A stretch of 64,000 bases of DNA from Patescibacteria group bacterium (GTDB lineage Bacteria; Patescibacteriota; Microgenomatia; UBA8517), in the NCBI GenBank assembly GCA_035260845.1, contig DATFUL010000003.1, forward strand, positions 75,620 to 139,619, written 5' to 3'. Shown here in pieces: positions 672-59,426 of the stretch. Numbering within the stretch: position 1 is the stretch's first letter; each line of letters begins with the position of its first letter. Under the pieces are notes generated by a model, which was given only the letters and a program-made list of their open reading frames with translations, made no database searches and had not been told where the DNA came from. The translations under genes and the position numbers were made by a program.

Positions 672-1373
672 ATGAAAATCAAAAAACTTTCAATTATTGT
701 CCCTGCATATAATGAAGCAGCTACAATCGCAAAAACCTTACGCCGCGTACTCAAGATAAAAATTAAAGGGATAAAAACCGAAATTGTTATAGTCGATGAC
801 GGTTCAAAAGACAAAACACTTGCGGCTATTAAGAATATTAAAAACAAACGCATTAGTTTAATAAGTAAACGTAAAAACGAAGGTAAAGGAGCTGCTATAA
901 AGAGTGCACTTAAAAAGGTTACGGGTGACGTAATAACTATCCAAGACGCAGATCTTGAATATAACCCTGATGAAATAAAGAAAATGATTGCACCAATAGT
1001 GAATGGTGATGCTGATGTTGTTTATGGCTCAAGATTTATAGGCAGCGAGCCACATAGGGTTTTACTTTTTTGGCATATGATTGGGAACAAGATCTTAACT
1101 CTTTTTTGCAACATGGTTACAAATTTAAATTTAACCGACATGGAAACATGCTACAAGATGTTTACTAAAGATGTAGCCAAAAAGTTAATTATCAAAGAAG
1201 ATCGTTTTGGTTTCGAACCGGAATTTACTATAAAAATTGCAAAACTTAAAGCGCGGGTATACGAAATTGGCATCGGCTATTCTGGACGTAGTTATGCTGA
1301 AGGCAAAAAAATAAATTGGAAAGATGGACTCCAAGCTGTTTGGTGTATTATTAAATACGGAATTTTAAAATAA
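672..1373 (+). CDS. GT2 polyprenol-phosphate sugar synthase-like glycosyltransferase (DPM1/ArnC/GtrB-like)
   Basis: N-terminal LSIIVPAYNEAATI, then VDDGSKD, then DADLEYNP. These are the classic GT-A DXD and DPM1-like signatures, and the protein is about 230 aa. Confidence 0.85.
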   Translation: MKIKKLSIIVPAYNEAATIAKTLRRVLKIKIKGIKTEIVIVDDGSKDKTLAAIKNIKNKRISLISKRKNEGKGAAIKSALKKVTGDVITIQDADLEYNPDEIKKMIAPIVNGDADVVYGSRFIGSEPHRVLLFWHMIGNKILTLFCNMVTNLNLTDMETCYKMFTKDVAKKLIIKEDRFGFEPEFTIKIAKLKARVYEIGIGYSGRSYAEGKKINWKDGLQAVWCIIKYGILK

Positions 1374-1955
1374 ATGAGGAAATCTTCACACGGGCAAGTA
1401 CGTGAACCTGCTTTAGAATATATTTTAAGCTTAATTCGTATTCAAGTTGCAAATAAATATATAAAAGAGGGTACAAAGGTCGCCGACCTTGGCTGTGGTT
1501 ACAATGGTATTTTTTTAAGAAGAATTGCTAAGAGAATTAAGTTGGGTGATGGCTATGATGTTTCGGTAAAAAATAAAAATCTACCCAAAAATATTATATT
1601 AAATAATACCGATCTTAATAAAAATAATTTTGGGAAAAGCAAATATTACGATCACGTTACTGCTCTGGCAGTTTTAGAGCATGTAGAAAATCCGAATCGT
1701 TTTTTAAAACTTGCAAAAAAGATATTAAAACCAGGGGGTACATTAATTATCACTACTCCACATAAGAGATCTAAGAAAATCCTTGAACTTTTTTCAAGAA
1801 TTGGTATTTTGAGCAAAGAAGAAATAGGTGATCATAAGAATTACTTTGACGAACATCGCATGAAAACAGATTTAAAGAATTTGGATTTTAAAATTATCAA
1901 ACTTGGAACTTTTGAATTTGGCTTAAATATATGTTGTGTTGCTAAGAAAGTCTAA
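1374..1955 (+). CDS. Class I SAM-dependent methyltransferase
   Basis: VADLGCGYNG (motif I), LEHVENP, LKPGGTLII (post-II). It starts directly after the GT2 stop. Confidence 0.75.
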   Translation: MRKSSHGQVREPALEYILSLIRIQVANKYIKEGTKVADLGCGYNGIFLRRIAKRIKLGDGYDVSVKNKNLPKNIILNNTDLNKNNFGKSKYYDHVTALAVLEHVENPNRFLKLAKKILKPGGTLIITTPHKRSKKILELFSRIGILSKEEIGDHKNYFDEHRMKTDLKNLDFKIIKLGTFEFGLNICCVAKKV

Positions 1956-1959
1956 TTAT

Positions 1960-3579
1960 TTATTTCTTAACAAGAAGAATTGATTTGAAATCAGATTTCT
2001 CATAATCATCATTCCACACGACTTTATAGGAATTCTTAAACTTAAACTCTTTTGCTATTTCTTGACAGCTTTCGCACTTCCATTTCTTAGGGTCCGATGG
2101 ATTATCAAAAATTTGATGCCAGTCATCTCCCATATCGTAATTTGGGTCATCAATTAAGTAATCAGTTAAATATATTACATCAAATGGAATAGTGCCTGTT
2201 GATGGATTGATTATTTGTTTTGGTTCGATCGGAAACCAAACGGAGCTGCGTTCACCATACCAACTTGCCCAGGTATCAAGGTTTGTTAAAACTTTTTGAT
2301 CACTTGCTGTATTGTCTTTTAATATCCATGCCAATTTTACATATGCGGGTGGCGATTTTAGATTAAATCTATTTGAGTTAAATCGTGAATCTAAGAATAT
2401 TATTCCGACAGTCTGTCCTACAACTAAACATAGTACCAAAATAGTTGCAATCAAAGGAATTGATCTATTTTTAGTTATCAATCCTACTATCCAGACAAGT
2501 GTTTCAATGGCCATCAGATAAATCAAAGGAGCTACTGGATGTATATATCGATAAAATGGAATACTAATAGCTGTAACTCCAACAGTGACTACAATCATAA
2601 ATAGAGCCGATATCTTAAAGGCTGTCTCTGTTTTATTCTTAGACCAACGAAAAACTCCAATTACAAAAAGTAAAAATAAATAAGGATTAAGTATTTGGGG
2701 TAAGAGTTTGTAAAAGTTGTATAGGTTGTAGAATACTTTTTTTGCTATTGCCAAAACTGATGCTGACATACTGCCACCCCTTAAGGCATTTGATACGGAA
2801 ACACTTGGCAAATATTGAGATAGTGAATTTTGACCTCTAGCGAAGATTGAAATAAGAAATATGTTCTGAGGAAGAATTGGTATAAGTAGCTTATCTACAA
2901 TAACTGCCAAGAAAGATAATATACCAAACCATATAAATGCTTTTTTGGTTTTATAATTTATTAGAAGCCAGAATAAAATTGCACCAGCAATATAAATAAA
3001 AGATTGAGGTCTGGTTAAATACATTGCAATTAAAATTAAAACGGCTACAACACTAGCCCATCTTTTTCTAAGACTTATAAAATACAGAGTCGATAATATT
3101 TCAAAAATGAATGGGGATTCAGATGCACCCGAGGCCGCGTAATTAATTAAATCATAATTCGTTCCAATAGCTAAAGTTGATAAAAGTGCTACTAAATTAT
3201 TTTTAAAAATACTTTTTGCAAGCAAAAATGAAAACAACATTGTGAGTACAAAGAAAATTAATGAAGTAATAATAACTGCCAGATCTGTAACACCAACCAA
3301 ACGATAAAACATACTAATTATAAAGGGTGTAAAAACAGGTATTCCTCTTGCGGAATAAAAACCGGTATTTATTGATGAAAATATACTGGGACCAAAAAAA
3401 CTAAAACTAGCAGTAAAACCCCTACCATTGACTAGGTTTCGTGCTATATCTGCAAATTTAGCTGCATCAGAAAAAGTTAAAAAACGAGGAAGGTTGTATT
3501 TTAAATTAAAAACAGTCAGAAAAATACAAAATACAAAAATAAAAATCAGCCAAAACCAAATCGATTTATCCTTTAACAT
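1960..3579 (-). CDS. Polytopic membrane protein, divergent GT-C (ArnT/PMT-like) glycosyltransferase. The ORF track extends it to a TTG at 3630; the ATG at 3579 is preferred.
   Basis: There are at least 10 predicted TM segments. The first-loop sequence SDAAKFADIARNLVNGRGF resembles the ArnT DE/acidic loop. There is a C-terminal soluble region of about 150 aa. Start MLKDKSIWFW sits 1 nt after the upstream stop. Confidence 0.5.
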   Translation of the reverse strand: MLKDKSIWFWLIFIFVFCIFLTVFNLKYNLPRFLTFSDAAKFADIARNLVNGRGFTASFSFFGPSIFSSINTGFYSARGIPVFTPFIISMFYRLVGVTDLAVIITSLIFFVLTMLFSFLLAKSIFKNNLVALLSTLAIGTNYDLINYAASGASESPFIFEILSTLYFISLRKRWASVVAVLILIAMYLTRPQSFIYIAGAILFWLLINYKTKKAFIWFGILSFLAVIVDKLLIPILPQNIFLISIFARGQNSLSQYLPSVSVSNALRGGSMSASVLAIAKKVFYNLYNFYKLLPQILNPYLFLLFVIGVFRWSKNKTETAFKISALFMIVVTVGVTAISIPFYRYIHPVAPLIYLMAIETLVWIVGLITKNRSIPLIATILVLCLVVGQTVGIIFLDSRFNSNRFNLKSPPAYVKLAWILKDNTASDQKVLTNLDTWASWYGERSSVWFPIEPKQIINPSTGTIPFDVIYLTDYLIDDPNYDMGDDWHQIFDNPSDPKKWKCESCQEIAKEFKFKNSYKVVWNDDYEKSDFKSILLVKK

Positions 3580-3580
3580 C

Positions 3581-4708
3581 TTATGACTTTTGAGAGAAAA
3601 ACTCAGCAACCTTTGCCGATACATAATCAACTTCCTTTAAACTCATAAACTGATGACATGGAATAGATAATATTTCATTTACAAATCTTTCTGAAACTGG
3701 AAGCTTGGGAACTTTTATATTTAATGTTCTTAAAACAGGCTGTTGAGGGATCGTTATAGGGAAATGAATTAAGGATGGTATACCATTATCCATAAGAAAC
3801 TTTTTAAGTTCATCTCTTTTTTTTGTTTTGATAACGAACAGATGAAAATTTGAATCACTTATTTTTTTAGGCAAGACTAAAGTTAAACCTTTAATTTTAG
3901 AAAGGTTGTCAACATATCTTTTAGCAAGCTCTCTTCTAAAATCGTTGTCTTTTTGTAAAAATTTCAACTTAACTCTTAATATTCCTGCGTGTAGTTCGTC
4001 CAGACGACTATTTAAACCATAAACAACATGCTTATATTTATATTCCTGGCCATAATCACGCAGTTGTTTAAATTTATTTGCCAAAATTTTATCATTCGTT
4101 ATTAAAGCTCCCCCATCACCAAAAGCTCCTAAATTTTTTGTAGGATAAAAACTAAAACAACCAACATCACCAAAAGTCCCCAACTTTTTATTTTTAAAAT
4201 AAGATCCATGTGCCTGACATGAATCTTCAATCAAATATAATTCATGCCTCTTACATATAGACTTTATTTGATCAAGATCACAGGGCTGACCATATAAATC
4301 AACCGGTAGAACTGCCCTAGTTTTTTTTGTAATTAATTTCTCAATTTTACCTGCATCAATCTGTCCATTTTCGTTAATATCAGCAAAAACGGGCCTTGCT
4401 CCGACCGCAACAATTGCTAACGTGGTCGCTACTGCAGAAAGAGGCGTGGTTATTACTTCATCCCCCTTTCCAATTCCATAAGCCATTAAAGCAATCTGAA
4501 TAGCTTCAAGGCCATTGGCAACACCAACACAATATTTTGTTCCTAAATATTTAGCAAATTCTGTCTCAAACTTTTCAACCTCACTCGATAGTACATAGGA
4601 TCCAGATTTAAGAACCGTTGATACAGCCTTCATATACAATCTGCCACGAACCTTAACTTCTTTGGGAAAATCCAAATAGTTAATTTTTTTAATTTTATTG
4701 TTCACCAT
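3581..4708 (-). CDS. DegT/DnrJ/EryC1/StrS-family PLP-dependent sugar aminotransferase (FdtB-like)
   Basis: DVGCFSFYPTKNLGAFGDGGALITND, plus the active-site-Lys region and GLEAIQIAL. This is the textbook DegT family pattern. Confidence 0.9.
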   Translation of the reverse strand: MVNNKIKKINYLDFPKEVKVRGRLYMKAVSTVLKSGSYVLSSEVEKFETEFAKYLGTKYCVGVANGLEAIQIALMAYGIGKGDEVITTPLSAVATTLAIVAVGARPVFADINENGQIDAGKIEKLITKKTRAVLPVDLYGQPCDLDQIKSICKRHELYLIEDSCQAHGSYFKNKKLGTFGDVGCFSFYPTKNLGAFGDGGALITNDKILANKFKQLRDYGQEYKYKHVVYGLNSRLDELHAGILRVKLKFLQKDNDFRRELAKRYVDNLSKIKGLTLVLPKKISDSNFHLFVIKTKKRDELKKFLMDNGIPSLIHFPITIPQQPVLRTLNIKVPKLPVSERFVNEILSIPCHQFMSLKEVDYVSAKVAEFFSQKS

Positions 4709-5261
4709 ATGATTTTAGAAAGTCATCATAACTTCTTACATAATCTTGAGGGTCATGCCGTTCTGAGGCAAGAACTAAGAGAATAGTATCTTTTTTAAAA
4801 CCCTGCATCTCATGCCAAACTCCTGGCTCTAATAATACACCAATATTTGATTTATTTAATAATACTTTTTCTTTCTTCTTACCATCGTCTAAAACAATAA
4901 TAATACTACCTTGAATACAAAATAAAACCTGGATAGTCTCTTTGTGTGTATGAGCCCCGCGCACAGCACCAACTGAAACTCCAAAAATGTAATAGACTCT
5001 TTTGATGTCAAATGGAACGTCAGGAGATTGGAGTTGACATAAAGAACCATCTGTTGACATTAAGGGGGCCGTAATCAATTTTACAAGCTTACCTTTGTCT
5101 ATTTCAGAAATAATCGGATCGCTCTTTAAATTTAAAATATTTTCAAAAAAGAAGACTGCAAGGAGATAAAAAGGTTTGCCTATTAAAACTAATATCTTAA
5201 CAACATTTCTTAAAAAATCTCTCATCCGCAGAATTATATCGCACCAGGATCGAAAGTCCAC
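4695..5261 (-). CDS. FdtA/WxcM-like NDP-4-keto-6-deoxyhexose 3,4-ketoisomerase (cupin). The N-terminal extent is uncertain.
   Basis: STDGSLCQLQSPDVPFDIKRVYYIFGVSVGAVRGAHTHKETIQVLFCIQGS...VWHEMQGF...LVLASERHDPQDYVRSYDDF matches the FdtA consensus (RG-L...PF-IKRvYyi...RG-HaH, WHe, YdE-DYiRdYd-F). The cupin domain occupies 4695..about 5081. The first 60 aa of the longest ORF (GTG start) are hydrophobic and atypical for FdtA. Confidence 0.75.
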   Translation of the reverse strand: MDFRSWCDIILRMRDFLRNVVKILVLIGKPFYLLAVFFFENILNLKSDPIISEIDKGKLVKLITAPLMSTDGSLCQLQSPDVPFDIKRVYYIFGVSVGAVRGAHTHKETIQVLFCIQGSIIIVLDDGKKKEKVLLNKSNIGVLLEPGVWHEMQGFKKDTILLVLASERHDPQDYVRSYDDFLKSYGEQ

Positions 5262-5273
5262 TATAACAATAAA

Positions 5274-5948
5274 TCATGGTCTTGTATCCAAAAACGGAGG
5301 CTTTGGTGAAGAGCCAAGTAAACTTATTATTGGTTGATGACCATTTACAGGCGGCAGATCCTTAATTTTATAAGAGACTAGTGATTCAATTATTGGTTTA
5401 TGTTGGTCTATAACTTTCAAAAACTTTTCTTCACTATCAACCAAAACAAAATCATCCTGCAAGACACTTCGAGTAACTGGAACGGTAAGGATTTGAGTAT
5501 ATGCAACAGTTTTTCTTTCAGGTTCCGGATATTTAACAAATCCAAGAAGATTTACTTCATTAATAATATTTTCAGCAAGGTCCGGAGTTTTAAATATTTC
5601 TGATATTAACAATTTTGGTATAACTTTTTCACCACGAACAATTGTTAAATCTGCGTTTCCTGGAATATGCAGCCCACCCTCCCAATCCAGTTCTCCTTTT
5701 GACGCAGTTGGGTCATGTCTTACTTTCAAATATGGAAGTGTTGTTTCATAATCAACAGGAATAATTTCTACACACGAATAATTTCCATGTAATTCTAAAT
5801 CCTTCAACCATATAAGTTTAGGCGCCCTATCATCATGTGTTTTCTTATATGCAATAATGGCATCAGCCAAATATGCAAAAGTTTTTGCAAATAGCGGCGA
5901 CTCAACTAATCTATTTTTGAAATTATGTTCAACTGACATTAGAGCCAA
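5274..5948 (-). CDS. Hypothetical protein of 224 aa with no recognisable motif, sitting between the FdtA-like and GT genes
   Basis: Clean ORF with a 12-nt gap to the downstream gene. It is soluble-looking. No family signature was recognised. Confidence 0.5.
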   Translation of the reverse strand: MALMSVEHNFKNRLVESPLFAKTFAYLADAIIAYKKTHDDRAPKLIWLKDLELHGNYSCVEIIPVDYETTLPYLKVRHDPTASKGELDWEGGLHIPGNADLTIVRGEKVIPKLLISEIFKTPDLAENIINEVNLLGFVKYPEPERKTVAYTQILTVPVTRSVLQDDFVLVDSEEKFLKVIDQHKPIIESLVSYKIKDLPPVNGHQPIISLLGSSPKPPFLDTRP

Positions 5949-5990
5949 GATTGTAACAAAATATACTGAAAAAGCAAAAGAAAGGTGGAA

Positions 5991-6986
5991 TTAATTACTA
6001 AGCCAGGCTTTGAAGTTGCTAGCCAATGATGTAAATCTCCAGTAAATTGGCCCAATATACTTTGCTATTGTTTGCTGAAAAACTTTAGCGGTACTGACTA
6101 GTGGTGGGCGGATCTCGAAGGTTTTATCAAAATTTCTTATTTTTCTATATTGTTTGGCAATTTCTGCTTCATACGATTTGTAAATAAATTCAACCACATT
6201 TTTTGGCAAAGTATAACCATATACCCGGTTAAAACTCTTCGGTCCTAAGATTTGGAATTGATGAAAATGATAACAAACTAATTTATCATTATTTATAAAG
6301 ACACTCCCATTCTTCTTACTTACTTTGTATTGAGAAATATTCCAGGGAGCTGCGTCAAGTCCAAGGTTTTTTGATATAACTAAGTTCTTGTATAGTTTTG
6401 GCCATTCATCCAAATAGCCCTGATCACCCATTTTTCCCTCTTCAGGTTTCCAATAGCACCAATCAAGACATTGCTTTCTCCACCTCTTAAGACATTTAAG
6501 TCCCTCAGAGTCGTTTTTGAAAACATTAAAAGCTAAATTAAATCTACCATTACGCTTTGCCAACCCCTCTAATCCTTTTGGAAACCTGTGTTCAATTGAC
6601 AAAAGTGAACCCTTACCAATCTCATCAACCCCAACCATTGCACTAGAGAAAAAGTACAAGTCAGCATCGAGATAAATAACATATTTTACGTCAGGATTTT
6701 TTTTGAATATATAAAGTGGCCAAGAAGGTGAACATGTCCAATAATACTCGACTACGCTTCTTGAACTTTTAACAGCAAGAAGTTCCTTGTCTTCAAAGTC
6801 GGCCATTGGTACAACTGTCATCCCAGGTAATCTCATTTTCTTTAATATTTTTTCAGTATATTTATCCAGAGCCAAAACCCACAATTCCACACCCGGTGTA
6901 GTTCTATGAAGCGAGTCATACAAAGCCAAACCTTTAAGTAAAAAGCCCTTGTCAAAATAAACACAAAAGATTGATTTTTCCTTCAT
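5991..6986 (-). CDS. Putative GT-A fold glycosyltransferase (DxD-containing nucleotide-sugar transferase)
   Basis: N-terminal beta-alpha Rossmann-like start (IFCVYFDKGF...LALD), then a DxD motif YLDADLYFF about 100 aa in. Length 331 aa. The family is not assignable. Confidence 0.45.
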   Translation of the reverse strand: MKEKSIFCVYFDKGFLLKGLALYDSLHRTTPGVELWVLALDKYTEKILKKMRLPGMTVVPMADFEDKELLAVKSSRSVVEYYWTCSPSWPLYIFKKNPDVKYVIYLDADLYFFSSAMVGVDEIGKGSLLSIEHRFPKGLEGLAKRNGRFNLAFNVFKNDSEGLKCLKRWRKQCLDWCYWKPEEGKMGDQGYLDEWPKLYKNLVISKNLGLDAAPWNISQYKVSKKNGSVFINNDKLVCYHFHQFQILGPKSFNRVYGYTLPKNVVEFIYKSYEAEIAKQYRKIRNFDKTFEIRPPLVSTAKVFQQTIAKYIGPIYWRFTSLASNFKAWLSN

Positions 6987-7017
6987 TGACGGCTAAATAA
7001 TACCACAACTTCCTGCC

Positions 7018-7047
7018 TTGTGTCGAACCTAAGATTATCGCTATAAT
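7018..7047 (+). promoter_or_regulatory. Putative sigma70-like promoter (TTGTGT, 18-bp spacer, TATAAT) for the 7059 methyltransferase gene. It implies a very short or leaderless 5' UTR.
   Basis: TTGTGT at 7018-7023 and a perfect TATAAT at 7042-7047 in the 72-bp divergent intergenic region. The ATG is at 7059. Confidence 0.3.
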
Positions 7048-7058
7048 AGCCCTTATAA

Positions 7059-7736
7059 ATGAAAAGGCCGCCACAGCCAATTGCTAAAAAACATTACCTT
7101 TCAAATAAGTATGAAGATTTTAATCTTTGGATTGATTATTGGTATCAAAAAAAGTTTTTAATAGAAACAAAACCAAATAAAATACTCGAAATTGGTAAAG
7201 GCACGGGAACCTTGGAAATGATATTGGAAAGAGATGGCTATAACTTTACCACGCTAGATATAGATAAAGACTTATCTCCAGATGTTGTTGGGGATGTTAC
7301 AAAACTTCCATTTAAAGATAACAGTTATGACACGTCGTGTGCATTTGAAGTCCTAGAACATATTCCATTTGAGGAATTTAGCATCGCGCTTAAAGAATTA
7401 AGGCGTGTGTCTAAAAAATATGTAGTGATTTCGTTACCTTATGCAACAATCTTTTTTAGTTTTGCATTTCAACTTTTTTATATGAAATCATTCAGTAAGA
7501 TTTTTAGGTTTCTAGGACTTAAACCTTTTGAACCGAGTTATATTAATTTTTCAATCCCATTATTTTTTCTTGACAAAAAAGGTATGATCAAGGCTCACGC
7601 CTGGGAGATAGGCAGAAAGAATTTATCAATATTTAAAATCAGAAAAGTGATTAGAGAACAAGGGTTTTTGATAGTAAAGGAGTCGGGGAGAATTTTTTAT
7701 CCATACCACAGATTTTTTGTCCTAAAGAAGTTATAA
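7059..7736 (+). CDS. Class I SAM-dependent methyltransferase
   Basis: ILEIGKGTGT (motif I), DVVGDVTKLPFKDNSYD, LEHIPFEE. Confidence 0.7.
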   Translation: MKRPPQPIAKKHYLSNKYEDFNLWIDYWYQKKFLIETKPNKILEIGKGTGTLEMILERDGYNFTTLDIDKDLSPDVVGDVTKLPFKDNSYDTSCAFEVLEHIPFEEFSIALKELRRVSKKYVVISLPYATIFFSFAFQLFYMKSFSKIFRFLGLKPFEPSYINFSIPLFFLDKKGMIKAHAWEIGRKNLSIFKIRKVIREQGFLIVKESGRIFYPYHRFFVLKKL

Positions 7737-22430: not shown

Positions 22431-24081
<1,651 letters not shown>

Positions 24082-47980: not shown

Positions 47981-49678
47981 TTATTCGACTCTATAAATTA
48001 TGACCAAGTCATTCTCAAATATATTTGCTAAAGATAGTTTGCCCAAATCCAAAGGTGATTTACTCGCTTTAATCCAATAAATATATTTAATATCGTTTTT
48101 GACCAAAAATTGCCTAGATTTACCAGTATCAAGTTCTTGATACCAAGACGCTATTTGAGATCTTCTATCTTGCCAGTCGTAACCTGTTATATCTAAATTT
48201 ATTTCATCCTCTAAGAATGTTGGTTGCTTGGAGAAGGCCGAAACATATGCTGTTGATGTATATAGATAAAGTGGTCTTGGCGGATTGTTTTCAGCCATTT
48301 TTGCCAAAAATGAATCAAAAGGCTTTGTCAAAACTATCCCCTGCGGCTGCTTTGATAGAAAGTTTAAAGCCGAAAGCTCGGACTCTGAAACCATTGCCGG
48401 TGGACGGTTAGGTATATATACATCTTTTAAAGTAATTAATGTTGTAGGAATTGTAGCTAAAACAATTAAAGAAATGAGAAGTTTACTTTTTATTTGCGAG
48501 ACAACAGTTCCTGCTAAAATTGATGAGAAAAATAAAGAGTAATAAAAAAATTGGATTGTATTCCAGGGTGAACCTTTTTGTAAAAATAGCATTGGAATTA
48601 CCCCACCTGCAACAATGAATGATCCAATAAAAACTTGCGTCCAAGACAATCTTTTTATGTTTTTAAGCCAGGTAAGAAGCGTAAATTCTTTTAAAATTCT
48701 AGTTCCCATGTTTCCTAACCAAAATATTGCAAAGGCGACTAAATATGCCAGAGTACCTTTAAAGTAATTGTGTGCTAATTTGTAATTGATCATTGCAGAA
48801 TAGAACCTGGGCCAATCCAGACGGTCGGAAAGCCCCATCAATGTCTCTAAAAACCAAAATGGTTGGAAAACAAAAAGACTAACTGAATGGCTATTAAATG
48901 GTAAATAAACAATCAAAGAAAGAATTAAAGATCCCATAAAAATTTTTAGAAGTAGACTCTTTTTATAAAGGATGAATGAATATAATCCCGAAACAAGCAG
49001 TCCACCAAGGGCCAACACTCCCGCATAGGCTTTGATTTCTATTAGGCTACCGAAAAATAAAATCGATAATACGAAGTTCCAAATTTTAAATTTTTCCTCA
49101 AGGCTAAAGATAAGAATAAGTCCAAATAGGAGAAATATTAGAGATAGTGCAAAGGGTGGATTAATGAGAGATGAAACTGCTTGTTGTGCCCAAAACGCAG
49201 ACTCTCCTTTCCCTAAAATCCAACCAAAACTCCCTCCGAAATATACAAAGAATGTTGCCCAAAAAGCTGATTTTTTTGAATTGATAAATAAATCCGTAAA
49301 TTTGTAAGTTAATAGTCCAATCAATATTGAAAAAATTACGGGAAGAATTTGAAAATATAAATTTATAATCGGAATGAAAGTAATTTTGTGTAGTATTGCT
49401 AGAATTAAATCAAAACCAATGTGGTAGTTTTGAATTATGGATCCGGCAAAGATTGGTATCGAGAAAGACCCTTGAGACAAACTTTCGGCAAGAGCAATAT
49501 GCCAAATTCCATCATGACCATTAGCACCCCAAAACCCAAGTCCGGATCCATTGATTCCTAATGAAGAATAAAACCACCCACTTTTGACCATCGTTAAACT
49601 CCAACTTATTGTCCCAAATAAAGTAAGTATAAAGAGTTTATTTTTTTGAAAAAATTGTTTTAAAACTTGTTTTAGCAT
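47981..49678 (-). CDS. Uncharacterised polytopic membrane protein of 565 aa (candidate polymerase/GT-C-like)
   Basis: At least 12 TM and a C-terminal soluble domain. It overlaps the wzx-like gene by 41 nt. Confidence 0.5.
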   Translation of the reverse strand: MLKQVLKQFFQKNKLFILTLFGTISWSLTMVKSGWFYSSLGINGSGLGFWGANGHDGIWHIALAESLSQGSFSIPIFAGSIIQNYHIGFDLILAILHKITFIPIINLYFQILPVIFSILIGLLTYKFTDLFINSKKSAFWATFFVYFGGSFGWILGKGESAFWAQQAVSSLINPPFALSLIFLLFGLILIFSLEEKFKIWNFVLSILFFGSLIEIKAYAGVLALGGLLVSGLYSFILYKKSLLLKIFMGSLILSLIVYLPFNSHSVSLFVFQPFWFLETLMGLSDRLDWPRFYSAMINYKLAHNYFKGTLAYLVAFAIFWLGNMGTRILKEFTLLTWLKNIKRLSWTQVFIGSFIVAGGVIPMLFLQKGSPWNTIQFFYYSLFFSSILAGTVVSQIKSKLLISLIVLATIPTTLITLKDVYIPNRPPAMVSESELSALNFLSKQPQGIVLTKPFDSFLAKMAENNPPRPLYLYTSTAYVSAFSKQPTFLEDEINLDITGYDWQDRRSQIASWYQELDTGKSRQFLVKNDIKYIYWIKASKSPLDLGKLSLANIFENDLVIIYRVE

Positions 49679-51131
49679 CTTCTACTAAACTTAGTCCAAC
49701 CATCGTGACCATTGATACAAGATAAACTATAAAGCCAAGAGATACCAAAACCTCCATTGCAAATAGGTTAGTTGGCAAAAATCTACGAGCTACAATAAGA
49801 ACTGTTCCCATAACAAAGGATCCAATTAGCGGCTTTAGCATCGAATCAGTTATAGAAAAATTAACATATTTTTTGGCAATTATAATAGCTGCTACCGATG
49901 ACGCCCCGACCAAAGAATATCCGATTGAAGCACCAACAACTCCATATTTTATTGCCAATGTTGGAACAAATGCCCAAGTTAAAACCGTCCACATTATCAT
50001 CAAATAAAAAGTAATTTTTATTTTACCAATCGCGTTTAATAGATTTGTTAATTGAGTTGTAGCTGCTGCAAAGATAAAGTTTATAGACACAAAGATAATA
50101 GGGACAAGAGCGGGAATCCATTGGTTATATTTAGGAACGATACGAACCAAAATTGGAGCCAAAATAGAAATACCTACCAAACTAGGAAATACTAATAAAC
50201 ATATAAAAAATATTGACCTTGTAACACTCCGTTCCAAATCCTCTTTTGCATCCTGCATTCTTGAAAAAGCCGGGAAAGTAACACGGGTAACGGTATCCAT
50301 GAAAAACGTTAATGGTAACCGGGAAATTTTTTGGGCAAAAGATAATACCCCGACTCCAATCGGACCAAGGATACTACCCAAAATCAAAGTCATTCCATCA
50401 TCTTTAAAAGTAGCTAGAAATGTATTTATTTGATAAGGCACGCCAAATTTGAAAAGCCCAATTAGAGTGTTTTTAGAAAAAGCGAAGCCGGGTTTCCAAG
50501 GTTCCAAAATATAGATTGTAACAAGACCGACAATTCCCCGGGCAAGTATTGCATAGGTAAAACTGCCAAGACCAAGTCCTTTCATTGCCAAAAAGACCAA
50601 GATTACGTTATAAACAACTTGTTCTAAAATTTGGGGAAAAACCAGTTTAATAAAATCGAGTTTCCTTTCTAAAAGAACTGATGGAATACTTTTTAGGGAT
50701 GAAAACAAAAGCGATGAGGCAAGTGCGTATAAAAGTATTTGTCCATCATGGGTCAGCGAATATTTTTGCGTAAAGAAGGGAGTTAAAGCTATAACAATCC
50801 CAATAATTACTAATACTAAAAACTGTTGAACGAAGAAAGTCGTTTTAAGATCGGAGTCGGTTGGTTTTTCTTTTTTCTGAATTAAAGCAGCGGCTAGACC
50901 AATGTCGGAAAAATAAACTAAAAAGTTAACTAAAGCGCTAACTATTGCAAAAACACCAAATTCATATTTGCCTAAATAAGCAAATAAAAAGAGCTGTGCA
51001 ACTAAGCCAATTATTTGAAGAAGAAATGTTCTTCCTGTTAAAACAACGACGCCGCGAACAGAACGTTCTTTTACAGTTTCTAACGATATTTCTGTAGTTG
51101 GGTCTAAGTGTTCTTGGCTTACTTCATTCAC
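49638..51131 (-). CDS. wzx: Wzx-type oligosaccharide flippase (MOP superfamily polysaccharide biosynthesis protein)
   Basis: About 14 TM. N-terminal GRTFLLQIIGLVAQLFLFAYLGKYEFGVFAIVSALVNFLVYFSDIGLAAALIQKKE is the typical Wzx/PST-family start. Confidence 0.75.
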   Translation of the reverse strand: MNEVSQEHLDPTTEISLETVKERSVRGVVVLTGRTFLLQIIGLVAQLFLFAYLGKYEFGVFAIVSALVNFLVYFSDIGLAAALIQKKEKPTDSDLKTTFFVQQFLVLVIIGIVIALTPFFTQKYSLTHDGQILLYALASSLLFSSLKSIPSVLLERKLDFIKLVFPQILEQVVYNVILVFLAMKGLGLGSFTYAILARGIVGLVTIYILEPWKPGFAFSKNTLIGLFKFGVPYQINTFLATFKDDGMTLILGSILGPIGVGVLSFAQKISRLPLTFFMDTVTRVTFPAFSRMQDAKEDLERSVTRSIFFICLLVFPSLVGISILAPILVRIVPKYNQWIPALVPIIFVSINFIFAAATTQLTNLLNAIGKIKITFYLMIMWTVLTWAFVPTLAIKYGVVGASIGYSLVGASSVAAIIIAKKYVNFSITDSMLKPLIGSFVMGTVLIVARRFLPTNLFAMEVLVSLGFIVYLVSMVTMVGLSLVEDAKTSFKTIFSKK

Positions 51132-56929: not shown

Positions 56930-58468
56930 TTATTTACTATATAAAATTCTTTCTCGCGCTTCCACTGTTATTCCACCAAAAGTTTGTTGTTTTACAATTT
57001 TACCAATTCCTTTCTGTCTATCAAGCCAGGCTTTAAGTCGATTGGGATTTGGTGGATCAACCTCATATAGTGTATATAAAAGCGGAACCTGTTTTTCTAC
57101 TGCAAGTTTGTGATATTTATTTGTCCCCAACCACTTAAATAAATAATCGTATGCAAAAGGAATTACAGGCGGAACATAAACATCTACATTAAAGTCACGT
57201 CTCCCCGCATTTTCGTATACCCAATCAATTGCAGCTTTCTGGTTACTTAAAAGTATTATGTCGTGCCCAGAGTCAGTAGTTACTAAATAAGATTTGGTCC
57301 AAGACCAGTTTTGAGAGAGAAAGAAAAAGAGGAAATAGATAACCAGAACTTTTCCGATAGTTGAAGTTTCAAAAAAGTGGGAAAGTGTATAAGAAACTGC
57401 AATCAAAAATATTAAATAATAACCAGTCAAATAATACTGATAAAAATTGCCGTAGTTACCCTGAAAGAATATAAGTCCAATAATGGGGGATGCTAAAAGA
57501 ATAAAAATTACTTTAAATCTATTGTTTTGAATAAGTTTTGGTAGAAAATAAATAAAAACAGTTCCTAAAACAATTAGGTGGAACCATTCTTTTTCGTACG
57601 GGCTGTGAATTAAGGTTGAAGTTAGATAAACAAAAATAAGTGCAAGTCTGTCATTTAAAAATCTCCATGTTGGAATTCCAAAACTGCTACCAGTTGTGAG
57701 AATTCCACTAACATTATTTTGCAAAATTCCACCATGTTTTAAATTAAAGATGAAAAGAGGTAAGAAAGTAACTAGAAAGGCGATAATTGAATAAAAAATT
57801 ATTTTCCAATTCAATGTCTTTCGTTTCCAAATTGCAAAAACAGCAACTGCTGGAAAATAAAATAGTTCTCCGGAAGACCCAAAGTGGAAGAAGGATGACC
57901 CCAGAATAAAAGACAGAAGAACCCAATAGTATTTTTTACCGTCTTGTATTTGGAACATGCACCACACCAAAATCATCGAGAGTAGTAGCATCGGGGTTGG
58001 ATTGCTGAGCCAACGGCTGGCATAAATTATTTCAAAAGAAAAAGCTCCAAGGATAATAGCAATCATCCCGGTTTTTACCCCACCAATTTTCTTGGCCAAA
58101 TGATACATAATCGCTAAAGCAGCGACTGAAAGAATTGCCAAGAATACCGCAGGGTAAACTGGATTACCCTTCCCTAACCAATAAAAAGGGGCTATTAAAT
58201 AATAATAAAACGGTCCCCTAAAAACTCCAGCCAAACCAGTTGTCGGACCTATTAAGAAAAATTTATGGGAGTGAATTAAATCCCAGATTACCTGAGCGTC
58301 CCTGCCCTGATCATAATAAAAGCCAAGAATTTGGTCGACCCTAAAAACCCGGAGTACAAAAGATATTACCAAAATTATAGAAACCGTAATATATTCTAAA
58401 GTGAAGAATTTTTTACTACGTATCGTGGCCAAACTTTGCTTAATTTTTTCTTGCATACTTTCTGGCAA
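56930..58468 (-). CDS. GT-C-like membrane glycosyltransferase, family B paralog 2
   Basis: FYYDQGRDAQVIWDLIHSHKFFLIGPTTGLAGVFRGPFYYYLIAP. Confidence 0.65.
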   Translation of the reverse strand: MPESMQEKIKQSLATIRSKKFFTLEYITVSIILVISFVLRVFRVDQILGFYYDQGRDAQVIWDLIHSHKFFLIGPTTGLAGVFRGPFYYYLIAPFYWLGKGNPVYPAVFLAILSVAALAIMYHLAKKIGGVKTGMIAIILGAFSFEIIYASRWLSNPTPMLLLSMILVWCMFQIQDGKKYYWVLLSFILGSSFFHFGSSGELFYFPAVAVFAIWKRKTLNWKIIFYSIIAFLVTFLPLFIFNLKHGGILQNNVSGILTTGSSFGIPTWRFLNDRLALIFVYLTSTLIHSPYEKEWFHLIVLGTVFIYFLPKLIQNNRFKVIFILLASPIIGLIFFQGNYGNFYQYYLTGYYLIFLIAVSYTLSHFFETSTIGKVLVIYFLFFFLSQNWSWTKSYLVTTDSGHDIILLSNQKAAIDWVYENAGRRDFNVDVYVPPVIPFAYDYLFKWLGTNKYHKLAVEKQVPLLYTLYEVDPPNPNRLKAWLDRQKGIGKIVKQQTFGGITVEARERILYSK

Positions 58469-59426
58469 CTGCTAAGGCTTTTTCTACAGCCTCGTCAAAT
58501 GGAACATCTTTAACCATTGCCCCCCCTGCCTGTTTATGTCCACCACCACCCAATTCTTCTGCAATTTTGGAAATATCCGATCCTACTTTTGCCCTCATAC
58601 TAACATTCAAGGAGTCTTTTTTTTCTTCAACCATTATCATTCCGAAATCTGTATTTTCAATCGAGGATGCATAAAAGTTTGCAGCCATTCTTGTTACGCC
58701 GCTTGAATCTGGATAAAGAATATATGTTTCGTGAGGAATAGCAGACCAAACAAATCTATTTTCTTTATCTATTTGTAAATTCTTTAAGATTTCACCAATC
58801 AATTTAACTTTATCAAAACTTATATTTCTATAAAAATTAAATATTATTTTATCTTTATCTGCCCCAAGCTCCATAAGATGCGCCATTGTTTTTGCAGTTG
58901 TTATATCTGCGCTTGAGTGCTGCAGAGACGAAGTATCGTAAATTAATCCTGCTAACAAATCCTGGGCTATTTCTGTGGAAATTTTTATATTCCAATCTTT
59001 AAAAATCTTATATACAACTTCTGCTGTTGAACTTCTTTTTGAGTCAACTATATTTATTTCTCCAAAACCTTTATTTGTATAATGATGATCTATAACAATC
59101 TTTTTTATTTCTGGGATCTTGTTGGAAAGACCTGCAACTTGAGACCATTCTGATGAATCTAGTAGTAAAAAGGTATCGTAACCGGAGAAATCAAAAGTGT
59201 CATAGTCAATTCTCTGAACTTTATCTGACGATTCTAAGAATTTAGAGTCAACAGAAATGTTATCCGGACAAACAACCTCTACAGTTTTACCCATATCTAA
59301 CAAAACTTTTCTCATGGCAAGAGCACTACCAACGCTATCTGGATCTGGACTCCTGTGACAATTTATCAAAATCTTGTTGGCTTTTTTTATTTCTTCTAAA
59401 ATTTTTTGCGATTCTTTATAGTTCAT
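58440..59426 (-). CDS. nrnA: DHH-family phosphoesterase, NrnA-like (bifunctional oligoribonuclease / pAp phosphatase type)
   Basis: DHH motifs INCHRSPDPDSVGSALAM, LLDSSE and IVIDHH, plus the DHHA1 GGGGHKQAGGA. Confidence 0.8.
   Translation of the reverse strand: MNYKESQKILEEIKKANKILINCHRSPDPDSVGSALAMRKVLLDMGKTVEVVCPDNISVDSKFLESSDKVQRIDYDTFDFSGYDTFLLLDSSEWSQVAGLSNKIPEIKKIVIDHHYTNKGFGEINIVDSKRSSTAEVVYKIFKDWNIKISTEIAQDLLAGLIYDTSSLQHSSADITTAKTMAHLMELGADKDKIIFNFYRNISFDKVKLIGEILKNLQIDKENRFVWSAIPHETYILYPDSSGVTRMAANFYASSIENTDFGMIMVEEKKDSLNVSMRAKVGSDISKIAEELGGGGHKQAGGAMVKDVPFDEAVEKALAVARKYARKN

What the first reader, a model, noticed from the sequence alone, without database searches (positions are those of the whole stretch)
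3581..5948. FdtA-like isomerase plus DegT aminotransferase (3-amino-3,6-dideoxyhexose route) followed by an unassignable 224-aa protein where an N-acyl or formyl transferase is expected
FdtA (3,4-ketoisomerase) plus FdtB-type aminotransferase is the established pathway to dTDP-3-amino-3,6-dideoxy-galactose or -glucose. It is normally completed by an N-acetyltransferase (FdtC, a left-handed beta-helix protein) or an N-formyltransferase.

No LbH hexapeptide repeats or formyltransferase motif are visible in the window. Instead the adjacent, tightly linked gene 5274..5948 has no recognisable family signature. It is a candidate novel amino-sugar-modifying enzyme. The RmlA and RmlB genes needed upstream are not in the window.
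Basis: partly seen in the sequence, partly recalled or inferred. Interest (0 to 1): 0.6.

Follow-up and report, generated by a model that had tools for sequence, protein, structure and literature searches.

The report
Orphan Nudix-fold partner of sugar aminotransferases
The "unassignable" 224-aa gene next to the FdtA isomerase and the 3-aminotransferase is not an acyl- or formyl-transferase: it belongs to a small, unannotated family of Nudix-fold proteins whose closest solved structure is GDP-mannose mannosyl hydrolase, it sits beside sugar aminotransferase genes in most related loci recovered, and what it does is untested.

Summary
On the minus strand, 3581-4708 is a DegT aminotransferase whose best solved relatives are 3-aminotransferases (QdtB, DesV, WlaRG). 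4695-5261 is an FdtA/QdtA cupin. 5274-5948 (more likely starting at ATG 5939, 221 aa) matches no Pfam, NCBIfam or PDB sequence. No ORF of 104 aa or more in the window is an LbH, GNAT, formyl- or membrane acyltransferase, an RmlA or a clear RmlB.

Homologues lie within one or two genes of a DegT gene in 9 of 10 distinct loci where neighbours can be read. The enzyme that would make the keto-sugar beside them varies: FdtA, an atypical SDR, or a MocA-type dehydrogenase. A PMT_2 (GT-C) gene usually follows.

Best guess (about 0.35): a non-canonical hydrolase of NDP-sugars that acts on the keto or amino NDP-sugar pool. A non-catalytic binder and a non-hydrolytic enzyme are not excluded. N-acyl transfer is very unlikely. 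I rate it a new variant of a known kind, of moderate interest.

The parts
5274..5948 (-). The orphan protein, called X in this report: a Nudix-fold protein with a degenerate Nudix box. The probable true start is ATG 5939 (221 aa; HKB88294.1, 'hypothetical protein').
4695..5261 (-). FdtA/QdtA-type NDP-4-keto-6-deoxyhexose 3,4-ketoisomerase (cupin). The N-terminal 43-55 residues are of doubtful reality.
   Evidence: PF05523 at 4.4e-40 over residues 69-184. Best PDB match FdtA 2pa7 at 8.8e-30, QdtA at 5e-26, with the His pair conserved. Homologues in L005 and L008 are 134-135 aa, 76% identical, and begin at window residue ~56. The public gene call is 176 aa from ATG 5225.
3581..4708 (-). PLP-dependent NDP-sugar aminotransferase of the 3-aminotransferase (QdtB/FdtB/DesV) type.
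   Evidence: PF01041 at 1.7e-107. Ranking of PDB relatives. NCBIfam has no model that passes its cut-off; the best is PseC at 234 bits against 423.5. Public name HKB88292.1.
5991..6986 (-). GT8-like (GT-A, DxD) glycosyltransferase candidate, called W331 in this report.
   Evidence: No Pfam hit for the window copy. Homologues sit directly upstream of X in L005 (61% identity) and L008 (63%), and two copies occur in L002 (38% and 34%). Two of five family members match PF01501 Glyco_transf_8, best E 1.8e-5. Invariant Y105-x-D107-x-D109 and H240.
1960..3630 (-). GT39/PMT_2-type GT-C membrane glycosyltransferase directly downstream of the aminotransferase. The public call is 539 aa starting at 3579.
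   Evidence: PF13231 PMT_2 at 1.7e-7. Nine TM-like segments. 52% identical homologue in L005. Name HKB88291.1, 'glycosyltransferase family 39'. A PMT_2 gene follows the DegT within three genes in L001, L005, L014 and L015/L016.
672..1373 (+). Small GT2 resembling polyprenyl-phosphate sugar synthases. It is a possible supplier of the lipid-linked donor for the GT-C enzyme; this link is inferred.
   Evidence: PF00535 at 3.1e-37. The best NCBIfam matches are AglJ, PgfS (a GT2 whose role I did not check), PpgS, ArnC and dolichyl-phosphate hexose transferase, all below their cut-offs.

Best explanation
**What is there.** Genes 6986-1960 on the minus strand form an operon-like module in a Patescibacteria surface-glycosylation island. 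In order they are: a GT8-like transferase, the orphan protein (called X here), an FdtA-type 3,4-ketoisomerase, a 3-aminotransferase and a GT39/GT-C transferase.

**What X is.** X is a soluble protein of about 220 aa. It has three N-terminal helices, a Nudix-fold core (about residues 56-195) and a conserved C-terminal tail, P-x-F-F-D-T-R.

**Shown.**
- The fold is Nudix.
- The family exists and is conserved.
- X genes sit beside sugar-aminotransferase genes in most loci recovered.
- The Nudix box is degenerate.

**Inferred, with less certainty.**
- X binds a nucleoside-diphosphate sugar in the usual Nudix pocket. The residues proposed for this are R77 on strand 2, R145 in the YPEPER hairpin, H183 at the start of the C-terminal helix, and E117 as a single metal ligand.
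- X works as a non-canonical, one-metal hydrolase of the GDP-mannose mannosyl hydrolase kind. It would cleave the NDP-3-keto or NDP-3-amino-6-deoxyhexose made by its neighbours.
- That cleavage would either dispose of unstable or surplus intermediates and recover the nucleotide, or control how much donor reaches the glycosyltransferases.

For: **Fold.**
- AF2 model: pLDDT 85.1, pTM 0.79.
- Foldseek gives 234 PDB hits at E<=1e-3, and the 50 listed are all Nudix-domain proteins.

**Sequence-level homology.**
- hhalign of the family profile against MutT: E 1.8e-4, probability 49%, 74 columns.
- The alignment to Gmm uses the same ungapped register, but at probability 7-11%.
- 3 of 27 family members weakly match PF00293.

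**Residue correspondences in that register.**
- G97 aligns with the first Gly of the GG pair that opens the Nudix box.
- E117 aligns with MutT E57 and with the retained Glu of Gmm.
- R77 aligns with the Gmm Arg in LGKR.
- E61 aligns with the Gmm Asp on strand 1.
- R145 aligns with MutT R78, and H183 with MutT N119 (low confidence).
- The GDP-sugar glycosyl hydrolases are documented to have lost key Nudix-box residues and to use a different mechanism (PMC5389931).

**Genomic linkage.**
- X-FdtA-DegT in the window (the same locus was also recovered from a metagenome as L010), in L005 and in L008. L002 holds the same genes rearranged.
- SDR-X-DegT in L001, L006 and L015/L016.
- X-DegT in L004.
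- DegT | X-MocA dehydrogenase in L014.

**Precedent.** E. coli gmm lies inside the gmd-fcl-gmm-wcaI-cpsB nucleotide-sugar operon.

**Polar conservation.** The invariant or near-invariant polar residues (Y57, C59, E61, R77, W89, H94, E117, E142, E144, R145, H183) look like a ligand or active site.
Against: - No activity was tested.
- Only one of the three REUxEE glutamates survives. The conserved Glu of GX5E and the Arg of the box are also gone, so X is more degenerate than Gmm.
- The Gmm catalytic His (in its Q-H loop; role recalled from the literature) has no conserved counterpart at the position expected from secondary structure. X has L-Q-x-[D/G] there.
- The sequence alignment to Gmm itself is not significant.
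- Nudix-clan proteins with degenerate boxes are often non-hydrolytic, for example IDI, the MutY C-terminal domain, and the regulators NrtR and AraR, which appear among the fold hits.
- One family member, in L017, has no aminotransferase within 6 kb.
- In L014 the adjacent DegT is a WecE-like 4-aminotransferase, so the substrate class is not uniform.
- I had no model coordinates. The active-site mapping therefore rests on alignments and secondary structure, not on a superposition.
Confidence: 0.35

Rival explanations
1. X is a non-catalytic Nudix-fold protein. It would bind the NDP-sugar, or dock onto the aminotransferase or a glycosyltransferase, and act as a carrier for the unstable 3-keto intermediate or as a regulatory subunit.
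For: - The Nudix box is almost completely degenerate.
- Non-enzymatic Nudix-clan members are well documented (PMC5389931). The regulators AraR and NrtR are among the fold hits.
- The constant neighbour is DegT, while the enzyme that would make the keto-sugar varies.
- A conserved C-terminal peptide, P-x-F-F-D-T-R, follows a low-confidence linker and looks like a docking motif.
- X has its own N-terminal three-helix extension.
Against: - Five invariant and about ten near-invariant polar residues are more typical of catalysis.
- I know of no precedent for a dedicated NDP-keto-sugar chaperone.
- X has no DNA-binding domain, so it is not an NrtR/AraR-type regulator.
Confidence: 0.25
2. X is a non-hydrolytic enzyme acting on an NDP-keto or NDP-amino sugar. 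It would use acid/base chemistry as IPP isomerase (also a Nudix fold) does, for example an epimerase or isomerase. Alternatively it would perform a Gmm-like substitution at C1 with an acceptor other than water.
For: - Conserved C59, E61, H94, E142, E144 and H183 could form an acid/base or metal site.
- In L001, L006 and L015 X lies between an SDR lacking YxxxK and a DegT, with no FdtA in the stretch fetched. The L001 DegT was checked and is 3-aminotransferase-like, so a step may be missing there.
Against: - hhalign of the family against E. coli Idi finds nothing: probability 1%.
- In the window, L005, L008 and L002, X coexists with a complete FdtA, so it is not simply a replacement ketoisomerase.
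- No Nudix-fold sugar epimerase or transferase is known, as far as I recall.
Confidence: 0.15
3. One reading: X is a novel N-acyl, N-formyl or other N-modifying transferase that completes the dTDP-3-amino-3,6-dideoxyhexose pathway.
For: - No recognisable N-acyl or N-formyl transferase is in the window.
- X is tightly linked to the aminotransferase in most loci recovered.
Against: - The fold is Nudix, not LbH, GNAT or formyltransferase.
- No acyl-CoA or folate-binding features were found.
- The gene lies upstream of FdtA and DegT.
- The amino sugar may simply stay unacylated, be modified by an enzyme encoded elsewhere in the 609-kb contig, or be methylated. Six class-I methyltransferases are nearby. 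The two I compared with PDB sequences are not TylM1/DesVI-like.
Confidence: 0.03

Closest known systems
GDP-mannose mannosyl hydrolase (Gmm/NudD/WcaH; PDB 2I8T, 1RYA)
   Same: - It is a Nudix fold with a depleted Nudix box that keeps its last Glu. That Glu aligns with E117.
- It has a conserved Arg on strand 2, which aligns with R77.
- It is encoded inside a nucleotide-sugar biosynthesis operon.
   Different: - There is no significant sequence similarity: hhalign probability 7-11%.
- X also lacks the box Arg and the GX5E Glu that Gmm retains.
- X has no conserved His where Gmm has its Q-H catalytic loop.
- X adds about 55 N-terminal helical residues, an extra helix at 122-131 and a conserved C-terminal FFDTR tail.
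- X's neighbours are FdtA and DegT amino-sugar enzymes, not the GDP-mannose/fucose pathway.
Canonical Nudix pyrophosphohydrolases (PF00293; e.g. MutT, RppH, NUDT15)
   Same: - The fold is shared.
- MutT gives the best profile alignment: E 1.8e-4 over 74 columns.
- 3 of 27 family members weakly match PF00293.
- R145 and H183 align with MutT R78 and N119 (low confidence). From memory, these two are MutT's base-binding residues.
   Different: - The signature GX5EX7REUXEEXGU is reduced to G...x-L-L-x-K-E, so two of the three metal-binding glutamates are missing.
- The window protein itself has no PF00293 hit, even at E<=1.
FdtC/QdtC (LbH N-acetyltransferases) and sugar N-formyltransferases, which normally complete the pathway
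   Same: Only the genomic setting is shared: a gene next to an FdtA/FdtB-type pair.
   Different: X has no hexapeptide repeats and no Formyl_trans_N domain. Its predicted fold is an alpha/beta Nudix domain.
Arn-type route (ArnB/ArnC/ArnT) and related amino-sugar decoration through GT-C enzymes
   Same: The module combines a sugar aminotransferase, a small GT2 resembling polyprenyl-phosphate sugar synthases, and a GT-C membrane transferase.
   Different: - The aminotransferase is of the 3-amino type, not the ArnB 4-amino type.
- There is no formyltransferase or deformylase.
- The acceptor is unknown, and the Arn system has no Nudix protein.
- The resemblance is an inference from gene content only.

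Membership tests
Nudix homology clan (fold level) | A beta-grasp Nudix fold of about 130 aa with a loop-helix-loop at the box position | tested here: met
   [not shown]
Nudix hydrolases (PF00293) | Nudix box GX5EX7REUXEEXGU with its metal-binding glutamates | tested here: not met
   In the MutT and Gmm register, positions 97-119 read G-x6-x-x7-x-L-L-x-K/S-E-[VI]-x. Only G97 and E117 are conserved.
Nudix hydrolases (PF00293) | A match to the Pfam model above its gathering score | tested here: not met
   No hit for the window protein. 3 of 27 relatives hit weakly, best E 0.0036.
GDP-sugar glycosyl hydrolases (Gmm) | Retained single Glu of the box (literature Glu70) and the strand-2 Arg (literature Arg37) | tested here: met
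   E117 is invariant and R77 is present in 26 of 27 members; both align with these residues. The alignment itself has low probability.
GDP-sugar glycosyl hydrolases (Gmm) | Catalytic His in the Q-H loop before strand 6, and the box Arg (literature His124 and Arg65) | tested here: not met
   The corresponding stretch in the family is L-Q-x-[D/G]-[FWL], with no conserved His. The box Arg position (112) is variable. The mapping uses secondary structure and alignment, not a superposition.
GDP-sugar glycosyl hydrolases (Gmm) | Significant sequence relatedness | tested here: not met
   hhalign probability 6.9% against one sequence and 11% against a 14-sequence Gmm alignment.
GDP-sugar glycosyl hydrolases (Gmm) | Hydrolysis at sugar C1, giving NDP plus free sugar | not testable with these tools
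   This needs an enzyme assay with 18O labelling.
LbH N-acetyltransferases (FdtC/QdtC) and sugar N-formyltransferases | Hexapeptide-repeat beta-helix, or a Formyl_trans_N domain | tested here: not met
   No Pfam match, and the predicted fold is Nudix.
FdtA/QdtA 3,4-ketoisomerases (gene 4695-5261) | PF05523 above its cut-off, and the catalytic His pair | tested here: met
   136.9 bits against a cut-off of 23. HTH aligns with the HAH of 2pa7. Whether the product has galacto or gluco configuration cannot be told from sequence.
NDP-sugar 3-aminotransferases (QdtB/FdtB/DesV; gene 3581-4708) | DegT fold with a PLP lysine, and closer to 3- than to 4-aminotransferases | tested here: met
   PF01041 at 360 bits. 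QdtB scores 338 bits and DesV 288, against perosamine synthetase 162 and ArnB 132. YPTKNLG motif read from the sequence. Regiochemistry itself was not assayed.

The most novel reading that the evidence does not exclude
X founds a Nudix-fold family with a new activity dedicated to NDP-keto or NDP-amino sugars. Three forms are possible:
- a C1-attacking (Gmm-like) enzyme that passes the 3-amino-6-deoxyhexose to an acceptor other than water;
- an IDI-like acid/base isomerase or epimerase of the keto-sugar;
- a dedicated carrier that hands the unstable 3-keto intermediate to the aminotransferase.

Any of these would add a new component to amino-sugar biosynthesis. So far the only member with a known taxon is from Patescibacteria.
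Probability: 0.2. Interest if true: 0.65.

Novelty: new variant of a known kind. Interest (0 to 1): 0.42.

Why it matters
FdtA/FdtB-type pathways are textbook routes to 3-amino-3,6-dideoxyhexoses. As far as I know they have no Nudix component, and a full-text search for 'Nudix' together with 'FdtA' found no paper.

Here a protein family invisible to Pfam, NCBIfam and PDB sequence searches turns out to be a strongly diverged Nudix domain. It sits beside sugar aminotransferases and GT-C glycosyltransferases in loci from unrelated metagenomes. The one member with a known source is from a Patescibacteria MAG, a group whose cell-surface chemistry is essentially unknown.

If X is a hydrolase, it would be a second example of a pathway-embedded NDP-sugar 'valve' like Gmm, but for amino or keto sugars and with an even more reduced catalytic motif. 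If it is not a hydrolase, it would extend the list of non-hydrolytic uses of the Nudix fold.

There is also a practical point. The missing N-acyltransferase should not be filled in by annotation transfer onto this gene.

Tried and rejected
- **Word-indexed homologue search with X: nothing.** This was later explained. X's 90% cluster is represented by the upstream GT8-like protein, because of a 464-aa chimeric member. The exhaustive HMMER search was what found the family.
- **Single-sequence AF2: useless**, at pLDDT 31.
- **Profile of the family against PDB sequences: no meaningful hit.**
- **Degenerate DNA pattern (W-E-x-x-L-H-x-P-G ... E-P-E-R).** It found 0 hits in 185,579 species-representative genomes. 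In metagenome contigs it found 2 hits, one real (L008) and one false positive at 64% GC (L009).
- **afdb50 fold library:** unavailable.
- **Gmm homologue search:** the 120 hits listed were all at least 75% identical to the query. The Gmm profile therefore stayed shallow, and hhalign probability rose only from 7% to 11%.
- **NCBIfam for the aminotransferases:** it has no 3-aminotransferase model. PseC ranks first but far below its cut-off, so I did not use it for classification.
- **Methyltransferases 7059-7736 and 1374-1955 as TylM1/DesVI-type N,N-dimethyltransferases:** no such similarity, so the idea is left open rather than supported.
- **Promoter and terminator scan of 1800-7200:** no enrichment over shuffles. 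One promoter-like site at 7026-6997 lies upstream of the GT8-like gene.
- **Literature searches.** 'Nudix' with 'FdtA', and 'Nudix' with 'sugar aminotransferase' and 'O-antigen', found no papers. 'Nudix' with 'DegT' found nothing relevant. The PDB codes 7B0D, 7N63 and 7N67 also found nothing relevant.
- **Taxon names for the other loci:** not obtainable.
- **X as a replacement ketoisomerase:** rejected as the general explanation, because X coexists with an intact FdtA in four loci.
Full report

Yes. The minus strand carries three consecutive ORFs at 3581-4708 (375 aa), 4695-5261 (188 aa) and 5274-5948 (224 aa).

The first is a DegT/DnrJ/EryC1 aminotransferase: PF01041 at 1.7e-107, with the PLP-lysine motif FSFYPTKNLG.

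The second is an FdtA/QdtA cupin: PF05523 at 4.4e-40 over residues 69-184. Its best solved relative is FdtA 2pa7 (8.8e-30), and the His pair is conserved.

The third has no match in Pfam, NCBIfam or PDB sequences.

The window comes from a Patescibacteria MAG. The four genes are HKB88292-HKB88295 on a 608,867-bp contig. The third ORF is annotated 'hypothetical protein' and is called from ATG 5939 as 221 aa.

I scanned every ORF of 104 aa or more in the window against Pfam (the ORF list and a crude TM count are). None is any of the following:
- an LbH/Hexapep, GNAT, formyl- or membrane acyltransferase;
- a sugar-1-phosphate nucleotidylyltransferase;
- a clear 4,6-dehydratase.

The only soluble sugar-nucleotide SDR is an Fcl-like protein at 23077-24054. 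The rest of the genome could not be read.

**2. Is the aminotransferase a 3-aminotransferase?**

The ranking of solved relatives says yes.

| Relative | Bits |
|---|---|
| 7b0d | 343 |
| QdtB | 338 |
| 7n63 | 300 |
| WlaRG | 294 |
| DesV | 288 |
| WbpE | 249 |
| Perosamine synthetase | 162 |
| ArnB | 132-135 |
| 2fn6 (labelled only 'aminotransferase'; I take it to be PseC) | 135 |
| 4piw (WecE-type dTDP-4-amino-4,6-dideoxygalactose transaminase) | 126 |

NCBIfam puts PseC first. That match is far below its cut-off, and the library has no 3-aminotransferase model, so I disregard it.

**3. What is the 224-aa protein (X)?**

The word-indexed search found nothing. An exhaustive HMMER scan of 1.84 billion cluster representatives found 30 proteins at E<=1e-3 and 19 at E<=1e-10. 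Apart from two very long multi-stretch hits that I take to be spurious, they are 126-259 aa long.

Their alignment (A1, 27 sequences) has invariant W89, G97, E117, R145 and H183. It shows these motifs:
- G-x-Y-x-C-x-E
- L-K-x-R
- E-x2-W-E-G-x-L-H-I-P-G
- L-L-x-K-E
- Y-P-E-P-E-R-x-T-x-A-x-T
- V-I-x-Q-H-x-P
- a C-terminal P-x-F-F-D-T-R

A single-sequence AF2 run failed, at pLDDT 31. With A1 as the alignment the model reached pLDDT 85.1 and pTM 0.79. It has three N-terminal helices, then a beta-grasp core, and a low-confidence C-terminal tail.

There is independent support at the sequence level:
- hhalign of A1 against E. coli MutT gives E 1.8e-4 over 74 columns.
- 3 of 27 members weakly hit PF00293.

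X is therefore a Nudix-fold protein, not an acyl- or formyl-transferase.

**4. The active-site region**

The MutT alignment and the much weaker Gmm alignment use the same ungapped register from the HIPG loop through helix 106-118. In that register the box GX5EX7REUXEEXGU becomes G97-N-x5-V-x7-K-L-L-I-S-E117-I-F. The family consensus is ...x-L-L-x-K-E-[VI].

Only the glycine and the last glutamate are conserved. E. coli Gmm reads GG-x5-E-x7-R-L-T-M-A-E-L-G, so it too keeps only that last Glu of REUxEE. Gmm also keeps the upstream Glu and the Arg, which X lacks. The review PMC5389931 notes that GDP-sugar glycosyl hydrolases lost key box residues and use a different mechanism.

Other correspondences:
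- R77 aligns with the Arg of Gmm LGKR.
- E61 aligns with the Asp on Gmm strand 1.
- R145 aligns with MutT R78.
- In a low-confidence global alignment, H183 aligns with MutT N119. From memory, R78 and N119 are MutT's base-recognition residues.

The stretch where Gmm has its Q-H catalytic loop is L-Q-x-[D/G] in the X family, with no conserved His. I could not superpose coordinates, so this mapping is inference.

**5. Genomic context elsewhere**

| Locus | Arrangement around X |
|---|---|
| Window (also recovered from a metagenome as L010), L005, L008 | GT8-like - X - FdtA - DegT; a PMT_2 gene follows in the window and L005, and L008 ends inside DegT |
| L002 | The same four families, rearranged, with a second DegT, a carbamoyltransferase and a B12-radical SAM enzyme |
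| L001, L006, L015/L016 | Atypical SDR - X - DegT; in L001 and L015/L016 a GT4 or DUF5667-like gene and then PMT_2 follow (L006 ends just after DegT) |
| L004 | X - DegT |
| L014 | X between a divergently transcribed DegT and a GFO/IDH/MocA oxidoreductase, then GT4 and PMT_2 |
| L017 | No aminotransferase within 6 kb |

Further detail on these loci:
- The L001 DegT again groups with 3-aminotransferases.
- The L001 and L006 SDRs lack the YxxxK motif.
- The L014 DegT is WecE-like, that is a 4-aminotransferase type, at 319 bits.
- Two other contigs were too short to read neighbours.

Counting L015 and L016 once, 9 of 10 informative loci have a DegT within one or two genes of X. The enzyme that would generate the keto-sugar differs between loci.

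The upstream 331-aa protein is a recurring partner. It is 61-63% identical in L005 and L008, and 34-38% identical to two copies in L002. It is probably a GT8-like DxD glycosyltransferase.

**6. Mechanism**

I commit to this reading. X binds an NDP-sugar in the canonical Nudix pocket. It acts as a one-metal, non-canonical hydrolase in the manner of Gmm. Its substrate is the NDP-3-keto or NDP-3-amino-6-deoxyhexose produced by its neighbours. The effect would be to clear unstable or surplus intermediates, or to gate donor supply to the GT8-like, GT2 and GT-C transferases. Confidence is about 0.35.

- **Shown:** the fold, the family, the degenerate box and the gene linkage.
- **Inferred:** the ligand, the catalysis and the physiological role.

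The rivals are:
- a non-catalytic binder or docking subunit (0.25), favoured by the degenerate box and the conserved C-terminal peptide;
- a non-hydrolytic enzyme, IDI-like or a C1-transferase (0.15);

The remaining probability covers roles I have not thought of.

**7. Comparison with known systems, and novelty**

X works most like Gmm but is not a member of that family. It fails the sequence-relatedness test and lacks the His loop and the box Arg. It is a member of the Nudix clan by fold, but it fails the Nudix-box and PF00293 tests. It is a small, previously unannotated, strongly diverged Nudix family with a specific genomic association. I rate it a new variant of a known kind.

The wider module combines a 3-aminotransferase, a small GT2 resembling polyprenyl-phosphate sugar synthases and a GT39/GT-C enzyme. 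In gene content it recalls Arn-type amino-sugar decoration, but that is only an analogy.

**8. Verdict**

The pathway assignment is right. The 'novel amino-sugar-modifying enzyme standing in for an N-acyltransferase' is not supported as stated.
- The gene is a real pathway-linked orphan, now placed by fold.
- Interest is 0.42.

Noticed in passing
window 1-64000: The whole window is one giant glycosylation island. It holds at least 13 PMT/PMT_2 (GT39, GT-C-like) polytopic proteins, about 12 GT2, 4 GT4, at least 6 class-I methyltransferases, a Wzx-like flippase (49638-51131), and several 330-590-aa polytopic proteins with no Pfam match.
   Followed up: partly
window 5090-5261: The FdtA ORF has an N-terminal extension of 43-55 aa containing a hydrophobic stretch (VVKILVLIGKPFYLLAVFFF). 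The extension is absent from the 134-135-aa homologues in L005 and L008, which start at window residue ~56. It is either a membrane anchor or a mis-set start, and no ATG, GTG or TTG lies at the homologous position except a TTG that would truncate strand 1.
   Followed up: partly
L001:4867-5865, L006:1562-2575 (and, L015:4979-5995): The SDR directly upstream of X in the loci without FdtA lacks the canonical YxxxK catalytic motif in L001 and L006; the L015 copy was not inspected. It matches dTDP-glucose 4,6-dehydratase only weakly (131-145 bits against a cut-off of 365), so its reaction is unclear.
   Followed up: partly
proteins P0166 and P0167 (cluster of HKB88294/HKB88295): A 464-aa database entry joins residues 1-262 of the GT8-like protein to residues 23-224 of X. 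It comes from the collection's 'SRC' source, a protein-level assembly as I understand it, and is probably chimeric. It places both genes in one 90% cluster, which hid X from the word-indexed search. If it were a real fusion, it would link the two functions.
   Followed up: partly
L002:4760-9143: In this NCBI MAG the X/FdtA/DegT set sits with a carbamoyltransferase, a B12-binding radical SAM enzyme, a second DegT, a Methyltransf_21 protein and a HAD hydrolase. This suggests a more elaborate amino-sugar than in the window.
   Followed up: no
L001:10945-11466, L014:7373-7936, L015:7754-8362: A small DUF5667-like ORF recurs next to the PMT_2 gene in the SDR-type and MocA-type loci.
   Followed up: no
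window 5274-5360 (X residues 197-224): The window copy of X has a 19-aa insertion (residues 197-215) found in no other family member. It sits just before the conserved C-terminal P-x-F-F-D-T-R tail, and the model has low confidence there.
   Followed up: no
window 23077-24054: A GDP-L-fucose synthase-like SDR (NF047922 at 284 bits, cut-off 500) is present, with no GDP-mannose 4,6-dehydratase in the window.
   Followed up: no
window 58440-59426: An NrnA-type DHH/DHHA1 phosphoesterase (HKB88339.1) is embedded between GT-C genes in the island.
   Followed up: no
L010:15309-18001 (beyond the window's left end): The same contig continues with a MetW-like methyltransferase, a Polysacc_synt flippase and an Asn_synthase-family gene.
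   Followed up: no
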